64,000 nucleotides of DNA, from IMG/VR virus record IMGVR_UViG_3300025057_000004, positions 1-64,000 of that record. The stretch is one strand, 5' to 3'. The notes below the pieces were generated by a model. It searched no databases, was not told the DNA's origin, and saw nothing but the letters and a program-made list of their open reading frames with translations. This DNA comes from a virus. The position numbers were made by a program, and so were the translations under genes. Shown here piece by piece: positions 2,627 through 21,040 of this stretch. How positions within the stretch are numbered: position 1 is the first letter of the stretch; every line of letters starts with the position of its first letter.

Positions 2627-3097
2627 TTAAGCTACTACTGGAGTGGCTCCTGTACCTAAAAGGCTCGAAGTGTCAACTAATACCCATTCAGTGCCGTTCC
2701 ACACAAGTGTTACTTCATCACCTACATTGCTGAATGTAATAGTAGTTCCTTGTGCAAAATTCACTGGAGTAAGCGTTCCGTCACCTCCATAATTAACCAT
2801 TTTTACTTTCTTCAACTGTCCTGCGACCGTACCGTCAGCAAGTGTGTAAGCATTTGCACCTGTGGTAGCGATGTTACTCTTATACTGCGTAAGCGTGATA
2901 GCTCCTGGCCCTACAAGAAACTGTGGTGCGGCAGCGACAATTATACCTACTACGGAATTAGTTGGTGGTTGAGTAGGAAACAACGATAATACGTCATCTA
3001 CAACCTCGTTGAACTGCTTGCTATAGACGTAAAAACGTGCGTTGTCCTTTCCAGGTAAAAAATTAGCCTTAGTTACTTTTTTTAACCAATTACTCAT
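2627..3097 (-). CDS. Head fibre/decoration-like protein
   Basis: 156 aa, beta-rich C-terminal domain (TITFSNVGDEVTLVWNGTEWVLV) of the kind seen in phage fibre tips; structural module. Confidence 0.45.
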   Translation of the reverse strand: MSNWLKKVTKANFLPGKDNARFYVYSKQFNEVVDDVLSLFPTQPPTNSVVGIIVAAAPQFLVGPGAITLTQYKSNIATTGANAYTLADGTVAGQLKKVKMVNYGGDGTLTPVNFAQGTTITFSNVGDEVTLVWNGTEWVLVDTSSLLGTGATPVVA

Positions 3098-3831
3098 TAT
3101 TCAATTATTTTAGAATTTTCAATCATCTTAGACTGCAAACCAGGTCTATCGGTTGTTTGCATTGCAAGTTCAACAGCAAGATCTGCAATCTTTTCGTGAT
3201 GCATCTCATCAAACTCACAGAAAGTATTAGGATCTGTAAGATCAATGTTTCTTGGTGCTCTATAATAGGACACCCTATAATTATCAGGAGTTGCACCATC
3301 AAAAAGGATCACTTCGTGTCTTTTACTGTTGGTTGCACTTACCTGATTGGTTATATCATCTCTTTCTCTGTCAAACCTCCACACAAGTTCCTCGTAAGGA
3401 CGCTTGTATGGATTCTTGACGTTTGCATTATAGTAATCCTCTCTGATAGGTTTTACAGGTATTCTTGAATCTGAGATCGTATCACCACAACTGTTAGTAT
3501 AGCTGATATCAATCTCTTCTTTCAAAGTTACCCAAAAATCTTCAGGAAGATCTACAAAGTATGAGTTAGGATGATCTCCTACTGCAAAAGGTGGTGTAAG
3601 TGTAATTACATCGTGAGCTTTCAACTGCACAAGATCCTTTGAACGCTTTTCGCTCTCCTCTGCACCTTTACGTGTAGGATTGCCAAATTCGTTATACAAT
3701 GATTTAGCGAAAACCTTTTGAGCCTTATTGAAAAGCTTTACAAGGTCATCATCATCATAACCAGGAGCGTCCTGCGATGCATACGCATCATAACGCAATC
3801 TCATGTAGTCCAATATCTCAGTTACGGTCAT
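3097..3831 (-). CDS. Tail ring / head-tail adaptor protein
   Basis: 244 aa; LFNKAQ N-terminal helix and YYRAP...CEFDEMHHEKIADLAV C-terminus resemble crAss-like ring proteins; synteny. Confidence 0.65.
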   Translation of the reverse strand: MTVTEILDYMRLRYDAYASQDAPGYDDDDLVKLFNKAQKVFAKSLYNEFGNPTRKGAEESEKRSKDLVQLKAHDVITLTPPFAVGDHPNSYFVDLPEDFWVTLKEEIDISYTNSCGDTISDSRIPVKPIREDYYNANVKNPYKRPYEELVWRFDRERDDITNQVSATNSKRHEVILFDGATPDNYRVSYYRAPRNIDLTDPNTFCEFDEMHHEKIADLAVELAMQTTDRPGLQSKMIENSKIIE

Positions 3832-4733
3832 TACTTACCTTCTGCTCTTGCAATCATTGTTTCAATCAAGATACGATGATCACTATTTTGTTTGTTATTC
3901 AGGAAAGCAATAGTCGCTGTAAGATCTACACCCATGAGATCTCCTCCCATTGTGCGATATGCAGTACCATCTTTCTGAATAGCATTATATGTCAATCCTT
4001 TTGTAATAAGAACTCTCGTCATAAGGTCTTTGTCGTTGACAACCTCAATGAATCTTTTAGGATTGCTTGCAATGAAATCTCCGATCTGTCCTTGTAACCA
4101 GATAAGTGTCGAATTAGGTGACACACGCTGATTCGTAAGTAAGAACAAGATGTCTGAAAGTGCAACTTTATCTTCGCGGATCTTACCATACTCAAGGTAT
4201 GCGTCAGCAATAAGATTTGCAGTTGCAGATTTGTTATTGTCCTCGTAACCCTCATCAACGATCATATACTTATAAGATGCTTTACGCTGTGCACTGTATG
4301 CATCAGGAGCAATAAAGTCCTTATTAAGTAACAATACTTTATAAGTAATGTAATCCATAGGATCTGATAGATCAAGAGTTCGTGGATCTTTACCGAGTTT
4401 TACAGGTTTGAATGTACTTTTCCAAAAGTTATTTTCACGCTTATGTACAGAAAGATCACCCTCTTTAATAGAAAGTCCAGGATGCGACTCAAGCATATCC
4501 TGTTCTTCACTTGTAAGCGGATTAATGTACGATCCGTTCATTGCGTTCTTTGGTACTGTAAAAGTATTCATTGAGTGCTGATATAGAAATTCAGCTTCGT
4601 GACCTTTCGGTAACCATGTCTTTTTAACCACAGGTAATACTGTGACCTTTTTTCTTGGTAAGGAGAATGCAGGAGCAGTCATTTCGACCGCCCCTGTTTC
4701 TACCTCAGTTTTTGTTGTACGCTTCTTAGCCAT
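3831..4733 (-). CDS. Conserved crAss-like protein following MCP
   Basis: 300 aa; LDLSDPMDYITYKVL motif; immediately downstream of MCP. Confidence 0.6.
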   Translation of the reverse strand: MAKKRTTKTEVETGAVEMTAPAFSLPRKKVTVLPVVKKTWLPKGHEAEFLYQHSMNTFTVPKNAMNGSYINPLTSEEQDMLESHPGLSIKEGDLSVHKRENNFWKSTFKPVKLGKDPRTLDLSDPMDYITYKVLLLNKDFIAPDAYSAQRKASYKYMIVDEGYEDNNKSATANLIADAYLEYGKIREDKVALSDILFLLTNQRVSPNSTLIWLQGQIGDFIASNPKRFIEVVNDKDLMTRVLITKGLTYNAIQKDGTAYRTMGGDLMGVDLTATIAFLNNKQNSDHRILIETMIARAEGK

Positions 4734-4764
4734 TGTTATTCCCTCTTCTAAACGTTAGCAATTA

Positions 4765-6273
4765 TCAATACAAGATATTAGGAATAAGTGACTTAGTACG
4801 ACTTGGGTCGTAAACAGCAACACCTACCTGACATCCTCTGTGTACGGTATAACCGTCAGTTGAATGTGACATCTGTGACATCTTACCTGTTGGAGAGTAA
4901 GGATCTCTCAATCCTGGCTCGTAACCGTAGATGTTATCACTGTTCTTCACATAGAACTTCTGAATGTTCGGCTCTCCGTTAGTAGTACCGATATCCATGA
5001 TATCGTAACGGTAAGACTCAGCAACACCACCATTCGGGTGAAGAATCTTGTTACGCTCTCTGTCATCGTACATAGAATCTACAGAGATAGAGAAACGGAT
5101 TCCGTTAGGTCCCATATAATCTAGGAACTGACCTCCGTAACCGTATGTCATAGATACACCTGCCATCCCTCCGTTCTCAGAAGTAGAGAACATACGAGTA
5201 GCATCAAACAATGGTCTGAACAACTGTGCATAATTTTCTAATGCAAGGTGGAACTGTACAGCTCCTCGCTCACCTGTTCTTGCTACAAAGTGTCGTTGGT
5301 CAGTAGGAAGTTTTCCTTCAGAAAGATCCATCAATGTAGATAGCAACCACTCGATAGAGAAATCACTGTAGAACTCAGTACCTGAAGACTCCATCTGCTG
5401 ACGGATACCTGCACCTTGCTTTTTAACGTGACCTGACTTACCGAAGTTGTAGTATTGACCGTTTGTTCCTCTGTTAGAACGTCCGAACATCATCAATCTG
5501 TTCTTTTCAAGACGATACTGCTGATCGAATACGTAATCCTCATACTGCATCCAAGTAACGAAGTTCTCAAGCTTTCCGCTTTTTGCATCCTTTACTTTGA
5601 ATCCTGTAGCAAATGGTCGGTTAACCATGTTTCCAGGAAGTGTATGCTGCATACGGATCATTGAGAAAGTGTTTCTCATTCCAAATGGAGACTCGAAGTT
5701 GATACCACCACCTTTCTTAGAAAGAGTAGATTCAACAAGAGACCACTCACGGCTCCATCTTTTACCTGCTGCAAGTTCTTCAACTGGTACGAAAAGATCA
5801 GGATCTCCAGTGATCAATTTCACTTCGTAGATCCAGTTAGTACCATCAGCTACAGGCTCAGACTGAATCTGTAGTGAATACAATTCATTCTTATGACCAA
5901 CAATGATATGCTCATCAGTGAACCATCTTTCTGGGAAAACCAAGTAGAAAGAAGTTACGTTCTTTCCTGGCTCATCACCTACTGCAACTGGTAACCCTGT
6001 TGGAGTCAATCGTGCTTCGATCAAAGGAACGTTTTTCTTACCGCTTCCGATAAGTTCCCAAGTGAAGTCATCATCAGTATCAAGATATTTTACCTTGTAC
6101 TTAGATAGTTGAGAATCCAAGTCTACACCAAAATTGGTAGTGTGGATTCTTCGCATGATATCAGTAGCCTTCTGTGGACGACCCTGATAGATGCTATGCA
6201 AGTGATTCGCAGTTGTCAATCCTGACCAGTGCTGCGCATCATACATTTGAAATTCTGAAAATTGAAGTGCCAT
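4765..6273 (-). CDS. Major capsid protein (crAss-like)
   Basis: 502 aa; WSGLTTANHL N-terminus, GAGIRQQ, TGERGAVQF, HPNGGVAESYRYDI motifs recalled from crAss-like MCPs; order TerL-portal-scaffold-MCP. Confidence 0.9.
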   Translation of the reverse strand: MALQFSEFQMYDAQHWSGLTTANHLHSIYQGRPQKATDIMRRIHTTNFGVDLDSQLSKYKVKYLDTDDDFTWELIGSGKKNVPLIEARLTPTGLPVAVGDEPGKNVTSFYLVFPERWFTDEHIIVGHKNELYSLQIQSEPVADGTNWIYEVKLITGDPDLFVPVEELAAGKRWSREWSLVESTLSKKGGGINFESPFGMRNTFSMIRMQHTLPGNMVNRPFATGFKVKDAKSGKLENFVTWMQYEDYVFDQQYRLEKNRLMMFGRSNRGTNGQYYNFGKSGHVKKQGAGIRQQMESSGTEFYSDFSIEWLLSTLMDLSEGKLPTDQRHFVARTGERGAVQFHLALENYAQLFRPLFDATRMFSTSENGGMAGVSMTYGYGGQFLDYMGPNGIRFSISVDSMYDDRERNKILHPNGGVAESYRYDIMDIGTTNGEPNIQKFYVKNSDNIYGYEPGLRDPYSPTGKMSQMSHSTDGYTVHRGCQVGVAVYDPSRTKSLIPNILY

Positions 6274-16024: not shown

Positions 16025-16086
16025 TGTATTAATGCAACTGAACATAGTTCAACGGTCACAAGTCCGTGTAAATGCAGAGTGGTACA
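16025..16086 (+). ncRNA. Twister self-cleaving ribozyme, type P1
   Basis: P1 UGUAU/GUACA; UAA cleavage loop 16030-32; P2 UGCA/UGCA; P3 UGAAC/GUUCA; P4 ACGG/CCGU with loop UCACAAGU; GAGUG strand; both pseudoknots pair (CAC:GUG and AC:GU). Confidence 0.9.
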
Positions 16087-18504: not shown

Positions 18505-19009
18505 TAAGAGGGGTCAAATGACTTCTCTTATTTCAAACCTTTTAATTACAATAAAATGAAATACTTAATTCTTAGTTTATTACTGCCATTGGTGTCTTGC
18601 TCAAAAGATACAGAACCAGGTTTATTCATCATTGATGTTTATGAGCAAGACAACATCAATACTATGTCATTTGTATTGGACATAGAAACAGAACCGTTTA
18701 CATACACAGAAGATTTCTTGCTTGAAGTTGTTGTGATAGCAAAGCCTATCATTGATGTATCTTCAGAAGAAGCATGGCTTGAGTCAGTAAGCAGACCTAC
18801 CTATTATAAAGCAATAGGTATCACTTGTCAGGATCTGATGATGTGTAACGGTAAACTTGTGCACGGGTTAGGTTATAGATTTGATGAGAACTTTGATTCA
18901 GATCTGTACTATATTACCTTTGATGTGTTGACAGAACAAGATTATATAGAGAGGGTCGATTGACCTTCTCTTATTTTAAAATCTTTAATTACAATAAAAT
19001 GAAATACTT
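18505..19009 (+). repeat. Duplicated hairpin plus translation-start unit (18505-18566 and 18948-19009)
   Basis: Related GGGTC...GAC hairpins, each followed by the identical 26-mer TTTAATTACAATAAAATGAAATACTT at 18541 and 18984. Confidence 0.85.
18556..18963 (+). CDS. Lipoprotein
   Basis: MKYLILSLLLPLVSC signal peptide II with lipobox-like Cys. Confidence 0.7.
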   Translation: MKYLILSLLLPLVSCSKDTEPGLFIIDVYEQDNINTMSFVLDIETEPFTYTEDFLLEVVVIAKPIIDVSSEEAWLESVSRPTYYKAIGITCQDLMMCNGKLVHGLGYRFDENFDSDLYYITFDVLTEQDYIERVD

Positions 19010-19304
19010 GATTATCATATTGACATCTGTCATAATATTGACAGGATGTTCAAAAACAATGGAATATGAAGATGTCGAATTTAAATTCGTATATGATGTT
19101 CCTCAAGATGACCGTGTGAATCCAGGTGATACGGTCATAATCAGCGTTACTACTTTATCAACTTCTTATGTTCCTCGCAGGAAAATAGTTGATATTTACA
19201 GAGGTCAAGCTTTACCTGAACCTGTAAAAGACAGTGTTGTTCATGAAGACGATTTTGTAACGCATATGTATACGTTTTATACACTTGGAAAAATATTAGA
19301 ATAG
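18999..19304 (+). CDS. Lipoprotein (true start 18999)
   Basis: MKYLIIILTSVIILTGC lipobox; same leader as 18556. Confidence 0.7.
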   Translation: MKYLIIILTSVIILTGCSKTMEYEDVEFKFVYDVPQDDRVNPGDTVIISVTTLSTSYVPRRKIVDIYRGQALPEPVKDSVVHEDDFVTHMYTFYTLGKILE

Positions 19305-19418
19305 AGTAAAACAACAAGTTGTATAGATAGTAACAATCAGATGCTGCAGCATCCAACACACACAGGAGAGTGTGTACTATTATGAAAAGACAAAGAAAGA
19401 AAGCAATTTGTTGAATTA

Positions 19419-19860
19419 AAGGTCAAACCTACGACCTTGTGATTGAGAACGTTAGTACTTTGGAAAGCTCAGTACCAATCACTAAAAGAAGATAAACGAA
19501 ATAGGTGGATTAGTTTACCGAATAAGTTTATCCAGTGTACCCTTGAAATGCCATTTGAGAGGGATGAAACAAAGATGCATTAAGTTGCGGGATACGTATC
19601 ACTGAGGAGTTGGCAGCTAGACCATTGAAAGATGGTGCTAATCATAGACAGTTGTGGTATACACTCTTGACAACGATCAACTGTCTCAGACGCATGTAAA
19701 ATAGCGGTCATGCGTTGGTAACCCTCCGTGATGAGATAGACCCTCATCTCACTAAACAGTAAGAACCTGGAAAGTCAAGCTGGTTCTGAATTACATAGGT
19801 GTACAACTATGTAAGCGGTCATACAAGGCAGGCTATTGCCTGTATGATTTTTAATACACT
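19419..19860 (+). ncRNA. Large ornate structured RNA candidate (~440 nt)
   Basis: Within a ~620-nt gap lacking a credible ORF; more than 10 stems, e.g. 19439-45/19476-82, 19491-97/19526-32, 19646-54/19678-86, 19690-96/19709-15, 19791-98/19807-14, 19819-25/19841-47; UGAAA/UGAGA T-loop-like loops. Confidence 0.7.
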
Positions 19861-19929
19861 AAACCAAAACAAATAAGAGGAAGCTGAAAATCTTGAATAG
19901 AGTAGGCATACATCATCTTATAAAAAATT

Positions 19930-20205
19930 ATGAAAGATGAAAGTAACATTTTACAACACGTTCCAGTTACTACCGAATGTAGTATGGATACAAGAAACGA
20001 AGGAAGTAATTATTATGTTACCGTTCTATGGAACTTTCTGTTTAGAACGTTAACATTTGTAATGTCAATAGGGTTAACAGCACAGTTTTATTACAATCTT
20101 ATGTGTGATCAACCTGCCAGTAAAGCATTTGCATACATGATGATGTTTGTATGTGCGGTGATTTTACTATCAGATCTTCTTGTCTATGATGAAGAAACTG
20201 ATTAG
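19930..20205 (+). CDS. Small two-TM membrane protein
   Basis: Two hydrophobic helices in 91 aa. Confidence 0.55.
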   Translation: MKDESNILQHVPVTTECSMDTRNEGSNYYVTVLWNFLFRTLTFVMSIGLTAQFYYNLMCDQPASKAFAYMMMFVCAVILLSDLLVYDEETD

Positions 20206-21040
20206 AAAGAGTATGAAGATACGTCCATCTGGAAGAAGCAGTGATTTCATATCACCTTCTTTCGGGTACGGATGTCTCCTCAACTGTAGCTACTGCTATA
20301 TGAAACGTCACAAGCCTGAAGGACTTGATGTTGCAACCAATACGAATGACATACTTACAGAGATCAACAATCATGCATTCTTTGCAACGGTAGATAAGCC
20401 GAATCAAACAGATCCTGAGTATGTAACATACGATATTGCTTGCAATGAAGACTTTGCATTACATGCCAAGCATCACGAGTGGGAGAAGATATTCACATTC
20501 TTCAGAGACCACCCTGTAGCAAAGGCAACACTTGCAACTAAGATAGTTCCTGATAGATTTCTTACTTTTGACCCTAAAGGTAAGGTACGTATACGATTCA
20601 GTCTTATGCCGCAGAAGATAAGTTCAATACTTGAACCTGAAACTGCAAGCATAGAAGATAGATTACGTGCTGTAGATAGATTCATAGCTGCAGGTTATGA
20701 TATACATTTGAACTTCTCACCTGTATTATACTATGATGGTTGGGAGGATGATTATGTAGAACTATTTCATCTTGTAGATGAGCTTGTTGACAACAAAGAG
20801 TGTGTAAAAGCGGAGGTTATCTTCCTCACACACAACGAGAACAAGCATATATACAATATGAATCACGGTCTACCAGGAGAAGACCTTCTATGGACACCTG
20901 ATGTTCAGGAAGCAAAGACCTCTGAATACGGAGGTAAGAACATACGATACAAAGCAGATCTAAAATCTGATATGATTGCTGTGTTTAAAGATTTACACGG
21001 ATGTATTATACCGTGGAATCAGATACGTTACATCTTTTAA
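20180..21040 (+). CDS. splB: Spore photoproduct lyase-family radical SAM enzyme
   Basis: GYGCLLNCSYCYM CxxxCxxC(Y) motif; YDIACNED resembles the Bacillus SplB H-donor Cys141 region; RIRFSLMP, IEDRLRAV, LNFSPV motifs. Confidence 0.8.
   Translation: MSMMKKLIRKSMKIRPSGRSSDFISPSFGYGCLLNCSYCYMKRHKPEGLDVATNTNDILTEINNHAFFATVDKPNQTDPEYVTYDIACNEDFALHAKHHEWEKIFTFFRDHPVAKATLATKIVPDRFLTFDPKGKVRIRFSLMPQKISSILEPETASIEDRLRAVDRFIAAGYDIHLNFSPVLYYDGWEDDYVELFHLVDELVDNKECVKAEVIFLTHNENKHIYNMNHGLPGEDLLWTPDVQEAKTSEYGGKNIRYKADLKSDMIAVFKDLHGCIIPWNQIRYIF

What the first reader, a model, noticed from the sequence alone, without database searches (positions are those of the whole stretch)
19419..19860. ~440-nt ornate RNA with T-loop-like motifs and possible tertiary contacts
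Seen: back-to-back stems, including a multibranch closed by AUCAC.GAGG/CCUC.GUGAU (19598-19732) and a symmetric purine-rich internal loop (CGAAAUAG/CGAAUAAG, 19497-19526). A CCCU/AGGG stem (19540-19563) holds both UGAAA and UGAGA, like a paired T-loop module, and ACCAU-UGAAAG-AUGGU forms another such loop. AGCGGUCAU occurs twice (19703, 19814), and the loop GGUGUA (19798) is complementary to UACACU (19660 or 19855). Known: interdigitated T-loops bind tRNA elbows in T-boxes, RNase P and the L1 stalk. Inference: a large folded RNA, possibly a new class or a ROOL/GOLLD-like relative.
Basis: partly seen in the sequence, partly recalled or inferred. Interest (0 to 1): 0.75.

Follow-up and report, generated by a model that had tools for sequence, protein, structure and literature searches.

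The report
New modular folded phage RNA gene
This gene-free stretch of a marine crAss-like phage encodes a roughly 435-base, intricately folded non-coding RNA from an uncatalogued phage RNA family, which probably includes a very abundant RNA of unknown function seen in a cultured relative.

Summary
Window 19417-19852 (+ strand) is a conserved structured RNA, not coding and not chance. Rfam 15 has no match for it, ROOL and GOLLD included. Its only hit in the gap is a separate DUF805b motif at 19874-19908.

I found 23 distinct elements of the same family, the window's included, in viral, metagenome and one Flavobacteriales-MAG contig. They share an invariant core: P3, P4, P5, a pseudoknot UGCCA x UGGCA, then GAGGAGUUGGCAGC and P7-GCUAA. 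Around it sit swappable arms.

Pair counts strongly support the core: 96.8% of cells paired against 34-46% in slid controls, and 14 pairs changed on both sides. A 3' domain of six hairpins plus an intrinsic terminator is shared by 5 elements.

The covarying P4 replaces it.

A divergent subfamily with the same element order lies in Cellulophaga phage phi14:2. It sits in an intergenic region that a preprint reports as a very abundant, persistent early "long non-coding RNA".

Function is unknown. I favour a stable trans-acting RNA. A loop that switches between two palindromes hints at dimerisation.

Earlier scan notes (e1-5812575) appear to describe the same family on other phage DNA.

The parts
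19420..19437 (+). P1 hairpin AGGUC-AAACCUAC-GACCU. The loop is conserved and the stem differs between members.
   Evidence: Stem variants are GGUU/AACC (L208, L253) and UCGCUA/UAGCGA (L293), read by eye. Homology to other elements starts at 19417-19420.
19439..19482 (+). P2, a variable-length arm closed by GUGAU/AUCAC.
   Evidence: Absent in L118, 12 nt in L195 and L268, over 100 nt in L198 and L226. 6 of 6 closing pairs show changes on both sides (helix 2).
19491..19532 (+). P3 (GAUAAAC/GUUUAUC) enclosing the invariant internal loop GAAA/AUAA and the small arm P3b.
   Evidence: helix 4: 100% of cells paired, 4 of 7 pairs changed on both sides (AC/GU, GG/CC, AG/CU, AU/AU). The invariant G, A and AUAA columns are listed.
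19533..19604 (+). P4: CAGUG (19533-19537) pairs with CACUG (19600-19604). It encloses P5 and a variable linker (19565-19597).
   Evidence: helix 5: 16 of 16 paired. L245 has G-C changed to A-U, and L196 has U-A changed to U.G.
19540..19563 (+). P5 stem CCCUU/GAGGG with loop UGAAA-UGCCA-UUUGA. Some members carry an extra hairpin inside the loop.
   Evidence: helix 6 (94.9% paired; L253 has U-A changed to C-G). Inserts in L198, L211, L215 and L220b are seen.
19549..19615 (+). Pseudoknot PK1: UGCCA (19549-19553) pairs with UGGCA (19611-19615).
   Evidence: helix 7: 98.8% paired. L118 and L196 have C-G changed to A-U on both sides (GACA with UGUC).
19600..19617 (+). Near-invariant word CACUGAGGAGUUGGCAGC (P4 3' strand, joiner AGGAGU, PK1 3' strand).
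   Evidence: Invariant columns. This word was used to find members.
19621..19641 (+). P7 (ACCAUU-GAAA-GAUGGU), minimal form here, followed by the conserved tail GCUAA. In many members an optional arm P6 is inserted just before it.
   Evidence: P7 100% of cells paired, 4 pairs changed on both sides in the long forms. P6 is 81% paired; 4 of 12 rows are shifted by one column in that alignment.
19646..19716 (+). 3' domain hairpins H1 (19646-19686, loop with UUGACA) and H2 (19689-19716).
   Evidence: H1 folds in 5 of 5 elements with different stem sequences. H2 is in the RNAalifold consensus.
19726..19818 (+). Junction CCGU/GCGG enclosing H3 (19730-19748), H4 (19762-19787) and H5 (19791-19814). The H5 loop is GUGUACAA, with the palindrome UGUACA at 19800-19805.
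   Evidence: 52 predicted pairs, 10 with changes on both sides. H5 loop is GUGUACAA in 4 elements and GUACGUAA in L232.
19820..19852 (+). Intrinsic terminator: a G+C-rich hairpin followed by UUUUU.
   Evidence: 3 terminator-like sites in 18800-20300 against 0.5 expected. Its stem covaries (columns 200-228).

Best explanation
Window 19417-19852 is a gene for a stable, structured non-coding RNA of about 435 nt, read from the + strand. It lies inside the early, rightward transcription block of a marine crAss-like phage and ends at its own intrinsic terminator.

It belongs to an uncatalogued, modular phage RNA family. The family has a fixed pseudoknotted core (P3, P4, P5, PK1, the word GAGGAGUUGGCAGC, P7-GCUAA). 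Arms (P2, P3b, a P5 insert, a linker, P6, the P7 tip) are inserted, lengthened or lost from phage to phage. In 5 elements a second domain of six hairpins is added.

Shown: conservation, covariation, strand, limits and terminator.

Inferred: the RNA itself is the product and acts in trans during host take-over. The invariant core would serve as the site that binds a partner or another copy of itself. The arms would be decoration. By analogy with the phi14:2 relative, it would be made very early and outlast the early mRNAs. The partner is unknown.
For: - Rfam has no match.
- No ORF is conserved. The longest ORFs here are 46 aa (+) and 55 aa (-), and they cross arms that are deleted or replaced in relatives.
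- 23 distinct elements share the core.
- Core pairs: 96.8% paired against 34-46% slid, 14 pairs changed on both sides, 0 of 500 shuffles as high.
- P6/P7 region: 92.9% against 34-57%.
- 3' domain: 10 of 52 pairs compensatory, and H1 folds in 5 of 5.
- U.G pairs are kept (P5 14 of 16, P7 8 of 8). These would be A.C on the other strand.
- The element has its own terminator.
- Tandem copies occur in L220, L211 and L245.
- A subfamily with the same order of elements lies at about 2910-3365 of phi14:2, between g004 and g006. The preprint 10.1101/2020.03.07.982082 (passages read) says the g004-g005 junction is transcribed above most genes from the earliest time point and does not decline.
- Contigs from 4 of 4 RNA libraries (4 studies) hold pieces or variants of 19303-19817.
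Against: - No transcript ends, level or strand were measured for this phage. The RNA-library data are contigs, may include DNA, and come from runs picked with this very stretch.
- In 7 elements (L118, L195, L196, L198, L208, L289, L302) the core is followed within 2-41 nt by a start codon with no terminator. That looks like a 5' leader.
- The link to phi14:2 rests on shared architecture and junction words, not on a scored model. That g005 is the old gp010 is my inference.
- The 3' domain alignment has only 5 sequences at 79% identity.
- No partner is known.
Confidence: 0.6

Rival explanations
1. Cis-acting 5' leader or processing module. The folded core stabilises, releases or controls the mRNA that follows it, for example as a protective 5' structure or a cleavage site at GCUAA followed by an A-rich tract. 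The window's copy would be a leader that lost its gene.
For: - 7 elements abut a start codon 2-41 nt after GCUAA with no terminator.
- The P7-GCUAA-A-rich-AUG module also occurs alone in front of genes in L197 and in Cellulophaga phages phi4:1 and phi17:2.
- 3 of 8 downstream proteins fall in one PHROG of unknown function.
- L198 carries the gene between the core and a copy of the window's terminator piece.
Against: - Downstream genes differ widely: 8 were tested, with no Pfam family and only 3 in one PHROG.
- 5 elements have no gene but a conserved 3' domain and terminator.
- Tandem copies follow one another directly.
- No alternative terminator or antiterminator platform is visible.
- The phi14:2 region stays abundant while early mRNAs fall.
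Confidence: 0.2
2. Self-cleaving or otherwise catalytic RNA that cuts the long early transcript into units, with the invariant pseudoknotted core as the active site.
For: - An invariant core with variable peripheral arms is the pattern of ribozymes.
- Units are butted against genes, tRNA-like sequences and each other.
- An earlier scan note reports ribozyme-cut leader RNAs in a marine phage (e1-6100930; not checked by me).
Against: - No ribozyme family of Rfam matches, even at E<=10.
- The CUGAGGA word looks like the hammerhead CUGANGA box. However, the GAAA lies on the wrong side of the would-be stem II (my reading; the hammerhead consensus is recalled, not from a call).
- No cleavage site can be named.
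Confidence: 0.08
3. One reading: the UGAAA/UGAGA pair in P5 forms interdigitated T-loops that dock a tRNA or tmRNA elbow. The RNA would then hold or sense tRNA-like molecules.
For: - Both pentamers are invariant or nearly so and flank a helix.
- Some members insert a hairpin between them.
- tmRNA genes lie close to 3 elements: L279 directly after the terminator, L209, and phi14:2.
- tRNA genes lie in the flanks of L245 and L289.
Against:
- The segment between the pentamers is used for pseudoknot PK1.
- The window's own genome has no tRNA or tmRNA match.
- The T-loop consensus I compared against is recalled, not from a call.
Confidence: 0.07
4. No RNA function. The stretch would be a patchwork of DNA-level recombination hairpins or decayed genes in a hypervariable slot.
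For: - The slot upstream of the DUF805b cassette is mosaic. L115 and L119 (SPL gene 99% and 93% identical) carry protein genes there instead.
- The P1, P7 and terminator modules occur separately elsewhere.
Against: - Compensatory changes, kept G.U pairs and a covarying pseudoknot indicate selection on RNA pairing on one strand.
- The core is invariant across phages whose flanks are unrelated.
Confidence: 0.03

Closest known systems
Early 'long non-coding RNA' of Cellulophaga crAss-like phage phi14:2 (g004-g005 intergenic transcript; Drobysheva et al. preprint 10.1101/2020.03.07.982082, passages read)
   Same: - Same setting: an early rightward block of a marine crAss-like phage, where the major capsid protein is 42% identical to the window's.
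- Same order of elements: a P1-type hairpin, UAAAGAUA, P4, a P5 whose loop pairs downstream, CAGCAAG-P6-GUGACC-P7-GGUGCUAA, then a terminator-like hairpin.
- The junction-word pattern hits 12 places in 4.3 Mb of held sequence: 10 known family elements, phi14:2 and L059.
   Different: - There is no BLAST-level similarity to the window.
- The core words differ (UGAGAA x UUCUCA instead of UGCCA x UGGCA), so this is a separate subfamily (phi14:2, L059, L245 upstream copy).
- Homology is inferred by eye and by regex, not by a scored covariance model.
- The paper describes only expression, not a structure or family.
GOLLD and ROOL RNAs (large ornate phage and prophage RNAs; Kretsch et al. 2025, PMC12286853, passages read)
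   Same: - Large, pseudoknotted, function unknown, phage-borne, often near tRNA islands.
- A conserved part plus a less conserved part.
- Symmetric kissing loops whose palindromes covary. Here the H5 loop switches GUAC to ACGU within UGUACA/UACGUA.
   Different: - No match to either Rfam model, even at E<=10.
- Different helices and core words.
- Smaller (about 190-650 nt).
- Oligomer formation is untested.
DUF805b RNA motif (Rfam RF02914)
   Same: It lies in the same gap, at 19874-19908, scoring 47.4 bits against a cut-off of 35.6.
   Different: It is a separate 35-nt element sitting 24 nt before the next gene. In 33 other loci with this motif the upstream gap is mostly 4-281 nt and lacks this RNA. 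Homology breakpoints fall between the two.
Small stable RNAs of phage tRNA regions (T4 RNAC and RNAD)
   Same: Stable non-coding RNAs of unknown function, co-transcribed with tRNA-type genes in a phage early or middle region.
   Different: Those are much smaller and unrelated in sequence. This comparison comes from an earlier scan note (e1-5788419) and my own recall, not from a test here.

Membership tests
ROOL / GOLLD (Rfam models) | Match to the family covariance model | tested here: not met
   At gathering thresholds, cmscan of the window gives DUF805b only. At E<=10 on 19200-20000 there are 5 matches, none to ROOL or GOLLD. Other family members were also negative.
ROOL / GOLLD (kind) | Phage-borne, near tRNA islands | tested here: inconclusive
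   Phage-borne: yes. tmRNA lies near 3 elements and tRNA near 2 within the held flanks. There is none in the window's own genome.
ROOL / GOLLD (kind) | RNA-only homo-oligomer | not testable with these tools
   The only hint is the palindrome-to-palindrome switch in the H5 loop: 4 elements with UGUACA, 1 with UACGUA.
New family defined here (subfamily 1) | Core words and helices P3, P4, P5, PK1, GAGGAGUUGGCAGC and P7-GCUAA in this order | tested here: met
   All are present in the window at 19491-19641.
phi14:2 g004-g005 lncRNA (subfamily 2) | Same architecture and junction words | tested here: met
   P4, P5 and P7 covary among phi14:2, L059 and the L245 upstream copy (read by eye).
phi14:2 g004-g005 lncRNA (subfamily 2) | Sequence homology by a scored search | tested here: not met
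   blastn of the window against 'phages' gives no match. A covariance model could not be built.
phi14:2 g004-g005 lncRNA (subfamily 2) | Abundant, persistent early transcript | not testable with these tools
   For the window there are only RNA-library contigs. For phi14:2 this is taken from the preprint.
Riboswitch / cis-regulatory leader | Constant downstream gene family and an expression platform | tested here: not met
   Downstream genes are diverse. The window's copy is followed by its own terminator, not by a gene.
Interdigitated T-loop modules (T-box stem I, RNase P, L1 stalk) | Two T-loop pentamers locked into each other, docking a tRNA elbow | not testable with these tools
   UGAAA and UGAGA are conserved, but the segment between them forms PK1. 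No 3D tool for RNA was available.
tRNA / tmRNA | ARAGORN or Rfam match | tested here: not met
   Searches give nothing in the window or its genome.

The most novel reading that the evidence does not exclude
This is a new class of ornate phage RNA that works as an RNA-only assembly, like OLE, ROOL and GOLLD. The invariant pseudoknotted core would build a rigid body. The H5 apical loop, whose six-base palindrome switches from UGUACA to UACGUA, would join two copies by a symmetric kissing contact. The class would have spread by module shuffling through unrelated marine phage lineages (crAss-like, large T4-like, Cellulophaga phages). It would also be the unexplained, highly abundant early RNA of the culturable phage phi14:2, so its role in host take-over could be tested genetically.
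Probability: 0.25. Interest if true: 0.85.

Novelty: new variant of a known kind. Interest (0 to 1): 0.7.

Why it matters
Large, elaborately folded RNAs with no known function are rare, and several of them (GOLLD, ROOL) are phage-borne.

This one is not in Rfam 15. It has a clear covarying core with a pseudoknot, occurs in many uncultured marine phages, and turns up in RNA libraries of seawater.

Its probable relative in Cellulophaga phage phi14:2 was reported only as an abundant, persistent early transcript of unknown function. The consensus given here names the nucleotides to mutate in a phage-host pair that can be grown. That makes an open question directly testable: what do crAss-like phages do with their early non-coding RNAs?

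It also shows that phage RNA genes evolve by swapping arms and whole modules, much as phage proteins swap domains.

Tried and rejected
- **blastn against cultured phages.** The 625-nt gap gave no match among 50,697 phage records.
- **Flanking small proteins.** The 114-aa and 91-aa proteins have no relatives in viral contigs, so synteny could be followed only through the SPL-like gene.
- **DUF805b exact 30-mer.** 0 hits.
- **Covariance model on A5.** I built no model, so there were no model-based searches and no R-scape-type test. I used pair counts and regular expressions instead.
- **32-nt core pattern in host-order genomes.** Allowing <=3 mismatches, 0 of 87 genomes of the order of the MAG that carries L302 matched. 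This is uninformative, because the pattern missed that MAG itself.
- **Pfam and PHROGs on 8 downstream proteins.** No function.
- **Sigma-70-type promoter scan of 18800-20300.** 5 sites against 7.3 expected, none placed to drive the RNA.
- **Conserved UUGACA ... UAAAAU in the 3' domain.** The two words are 23-24 nt apart, too far for a sigma-70 promoter, and a terminator follows. I read them as RNA loop motifs.
- **Hammerhead-like CUGAGGA.** Rejected, because the order of elements is wrong.
- **Alternative helix UUGGC/GCUAA.** The MFE fold uses it, but it is broken in L118 and L196, where PK1 is compensated.
Possible in 4 of 5 elements by eye, but not in L232. I prefer the palindrome reading, weakly.
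- **ARAGORN and Rfam on tRNA-looking sequences.** Neither calls a tRNA in the tRNA-looking stretches just upstream of L196, L198 and L209.
- **Uncovered parts in RNA libraries.** The flanks 18900-19302 and 19818-20232 were not covered by contigs of the four RNA runs. This is no evidence of anything, since the runs were picked with the gap itself.
- **Literature searches.** Searches for a published description of this family found only the phi14:2 preprint.
Full report
**What and where**

The window is part of an 88.9-kb IMG/VR virus record. Its 502-aa major capsid protein is 42-44% identical to those of crAss-like phages, including Cellulophaga phage phi14:2. The window also carries the giant 2093-aa and 4161-aa ORFs that, from memory, I take to be typical of that group.

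Genes from about 16.3 to 44 kb run rightward. Between the stop of a 114-aa gene (19304) and the start of a 91-aa gene (19930) there is no ORF longer than 46 aa on the + strand or 55 aa on the - strand.

**Known families**

- At gathering thresholds, Rfam 15 finds one thing in the whole 64 kb: a DUF805b motif at 19874-19908 (47.4 bits, cut-off 35.6).
- With permissive filters on 19200-20000 (E<=10) there are 5 matches. The other four are chance-level, and none is to ROOL, GOLLD, a ribozyme or a riboswitch.
- ARAGORN finds no tRNA or tmRNA.
- The gap folds better than shuffles on the + strand (z -3.64, 0 of 20) and less so on the - strand (z -2.54).
- A terminator-like hairpin plus T-run sits at 19826-19852. 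The region has three such sites against 0.5 expected.

**The slot is mosaic**

Relatives found through the neighbouring SPL-like radical-SAM gene include metagenome contigs with 93-99% identical protein.

- In L115 and L119, homology to the window starts only at 19867-19872, just before DUF805b. Protein-coding sequence lies upstream.
- In L120, window 19600-19648 abuts DUF805b directly.
- L118 keeps pieces of 19420-19648, followed by a 147-aa gene.

So DUF805b plus the 91-aa gene plus SPL form a conserved cassette. What sits in front of it varies.

**A family**

I searched with three short conserved words in viral contigs and one in genome contigs. Most hits of the 15-16-mers were chance. I kept loci with at least two family anchors in the right order, added some found by BLAST, and rejected 7 loose candidates by eye.

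The result is 23 distinct elements, the window's included:

- Three are cut by contig ends (L120, L215, L279).
- L242, L253 and L288 are identical over the part shown and are counted once.
- L220 holds two in tandem.
- L211 holds a second, more divergent copy.
- One (L302) lies on a 31.9-kb contig of a Flavobacteriales MAG. It is the only true hit among 7 in 185,579 species genomes.
- The window's genome has one copy.

**Architecture, 5' to 3',**

- P1: a hairpin with conserved loop AAACCUAY.
- P2: closed by GUGA/UCAC, from 0 to more than 100 nt long.
- P3: with an invariant GAAA/AUAA internal loop and arm P3b.
- P4: CAGUG(UA)/(UA)CACUG. It encloses P5 (CCCUU/GAGGG) and a variable linker.
- The near-invariant word GAGGAGUUGGCAGC.
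- P6: an optional arm (AAGAGAUAA/UUAUCUCGU).
- P7: ACCAU/AUGGU, from a GAAA-capped 6-bp stem to more than 100 nt.
- The tail GCUAA.
- The P5 loop word UGCCA pairs with UGGCA of the invariant word. This is a pseudoknot, because it crosses P4.

**Pair counts**

On A2 (16 sequences, 34 pairs including the pseudoknot):

- 96.8% of 496 cells are standard pairs, against 34-46% with the 3' partner slid by 1-3 columns.
- 14 pairs have a change on both sides, against 2-5 in the slid controls.
- No shuffle of 500 reaches any of the five measures.
- P3 is 100% paired, with four doubly changed pairs.
- P4 is 16 of 16 paired, with one G-C to A-U change (L245) and one wobble change (L196).
- P5 has U-A changed to C-G in L253.
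- The pseudoknot has C-G changed to A-U in L118 and L196.

On A5 (the 12 elements with P6):

- 92.9% are paired against 34-57% slid, and 7 pairs are doubly changed against 0-4.
- P7 is 100% paired.
- The unpaired cells in P6 come from four rows shifted by one column in that alignment.
- U.G pairs are kept in P5 and P7, which fixes the + strand as the RNA strand.

The caveat printed with the tool applies: related sequences can beat shuffles without any structure. The slid controls and the number of distinct pair types are therefore the stronger argument.

**The 3' half**

Window 19630-19853 aligns with L204, L220b, L232 and L279 (74-89% identity in BLAST; alignment A3).

- RNAalifold predicts 52 pairs, 10 of them with compensatory changes. 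They are H2, a junction CCGU/RCGG enclosing H3, H4 and H5, and the terminator stem.
- H1 was misaligned by MAFFT, but it folds in 5 of 5 with different stems around a loop containing UUGACA.
- The other elements either run straight into a gene (7 elements, 2-41 nt after GCUAA) or have other ORF-free tails of 162-280 nt.

- The AUCAC.GAGG/CCUC.GUGAU closure exists in the window and appears in its MFE fold. The CCUC and the extra U are window-specific, so it occurs in 1 of the 5 elements with a 3' half (by eye). Its CACUG is claimed by the covarying P4.
- The symmetric purine loop is real and invariant.
- The AGCGGUCAU repeat corresponds to a recurring CGGNCA word in H2 and at the junction's 3' strand.

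**Link to a cultured phage**

The preprint on phi14:2 (10.1101/2020.03.07.982082; passages read) makes four relevant statements:

[quoted passage not shown] - Early transcripts, made by the virion RNA polymerase, share no upstream motif.

RefSeq NC_021806.1 places g004 at 2194-2904 and g006 at 4602-4901. Everything between has had its ORFs removed. I infer that g005 is the former gp010 (3590-3910), so that the g004-g005 junction is 2905-3589.

In that stretch (about 2910-3365) I find the same order of elements:

- a P1-type hairpin (loop UAAACAUUGAA);
- UAAAGAUA;
- P4 (GUGUUGU/ACAACAC);
- a P5 hairpin whose loop UGAGAA can pair with UUCUCA just after P4;
- CAGCAAG-P6(GUAGUUA/UAACUAC)-GUGACC-P7-GGUGCUAA;
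- and, further on, a terminator-like hairpin.

Two metagenomic relatives of this subfamily are L059 and a copy lying in tandem upstream of the canonical element in L245. They change the P4, P5 and P7 stems while keeping the pairing (by eye).

A regular expression for the junction words hits 12 places in 4.3 Mb (both strands) of all held loci: 10 known elements, phi14:2 and L059. This is an architectural match, not a scored homology. blastn sees nothing between the window and any cultured phage.

Part of the subfamily-2 RNA, the P7-GCUAA module, also stands alone in front of genes in Cellulophaga phages phi4:1 and phi17:2 and in L197.

**Environmental occurrence and RNA libraries**

- 20 of 22 listed public runs from 12 studies hold at least part of the gap. 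They are seawater, marine sediment, mollusc, estuary and one freshwater sample. 10 hold half or more of the sampled words, and one may be the source sample.
- All four RNA libraries I laid, from four studies, contain contigs covering pieces of 19303-19817.
- One 460-nt contig carries a variant of the whole RNA with other arms and the L232-type H5 loop.
- One 697-nt contig joins the upstream module to the 5' domain.
- These are contigs, so they show presence in RNA libraries and not transcription, ends or level.

**How it may work**

Shown: a conserved, strand-specific, pseudoknotted fold with swappable arms, its own terminator, and occasional tandem copies.

Inferred: the RNA is itself the product, made early and stable, as in phi14:2. 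The invariant core (about 70 nt of fixed words and short helices) is the functional centre.

One further hint concerns the 8-nt H5 loop. It is G-UGUACA-A in four elements and G-UACGUA-A in L232, and again in an RNA-library contig. That is a palindrome changed into another palindrome at four positions. Kretsch et al. (PMC12286853, passages read) used this same kind of switch to support symmetric intermolecular kissing loops in OLE and GOLLD. With only one alternative type this is a lead, not a result.

The main rival is a cis-acting leader or processing module. It is favoured by the seven elements that abut start codons and by the stand-alone P7 modules. It is disfavoured by the diversity of downstream genes, the five gene-less terminated elements, and the tandem copies.

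**Novelty**

- The family is absent from Rfam 15.
- My four literature searches found no description beyond the expression note for phi14:2.
- Earlier notes of this scan describe what seems to be the same or a related family on other phage DNA. The clearest is e1-5812575, which shares 10 of 39 words with the core and comes from a T4-like marine phage. I did not check those notes beyond the shared words.
- I file it as a new variant of a known kind: large ornate phage RNAs of unknown function. It is not a member of any named family.

Noticed in passing
window 19874-19908: DUF805b RNA motif (Rfam RF02914, 47.4 bits), 24 nt upstream of a 91-aa, probably membrane, protein gene. It marks the left edge of a conserved cassette (motif, 91-aa gene, SPL-like radical-SAM gene). 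The content upstream of that cassette differs even between phages whose SPL gene is 93-99% identical.
   Followed up: partly
window 19305-19415: A separate stem-closed non-coding module of about 110 nt, with two hairpins including the palindrome GAUGCUGCAGCAUC. It is 91% identical to L196 1254-1361. It is also present in RNA-library contigs of three studies, one at depth 84, with a sharp homology edge at 19303.
   Followed up: partly
L305/L309 (phi14:2, NC_021806.1) 4031-4502: The second abundant intergenic 'lncRNA' region of phi14:2 (g005-g006 junction) matches the Rfam tmRNA model at 46.0 bits (cut-off 47, E about 1e-15 to 1e-18). It is therefore probably a phage tmRNA, which the record does not annotate.
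   Followed up: partly
L279 468-651; L209 9765-10142: Phage-borne tmRNA genes lie next to family elements. A permuted tmRNA (62.3 bits) follows directly after the element's terminator in L279. A standard tmRNA (58.2 bits) lies about 2 kb from the element in L209.
   Followed up: no
L197 979-1000; L312 (phi4:1) 1520-1600: The P7-GCUAA-A-rich module occurs alone, directly upstream of start codons. It is seen in an uncultured phage and in the cultured non-crAss Cellulophaga phages phi4:1 and phi17:2. This suggests a portable leader or processing signal.
   Followed up: partly
L198 (reverse strand) about 2705-2775 of the oriented locus: After the gene that follows the RNA core there is a P1-type hairpin fused to a copy of the window's terminator piece. 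This is an example of module shuffling.
   Followed up: no
L196 about 1790-1905; L198 about 1590-1625; L209 about 545-625 (oriented): tRNA-looking sequences (D-arm and T-arm words) lie just upstream of, or replace, P1 and P2. Neither ARAGORN nor Rfam calls them tRNA genes.
   Followed up: no
window 16025-16086: A first-stage note claims a twister ribozyme here. The Rfam scan of the whole window at gathering thresholds did not report one. I did not run the permissive search on that spot.
   Followed up: no
window 20180-21040: A 286-aa spore-photoproduct-lyase-like radical-SAM protein (Pfam SPL, E 2e-25). It is very widespread in uncultured phages, with more than 500 relatives in each of two collections.
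   Followed up: no
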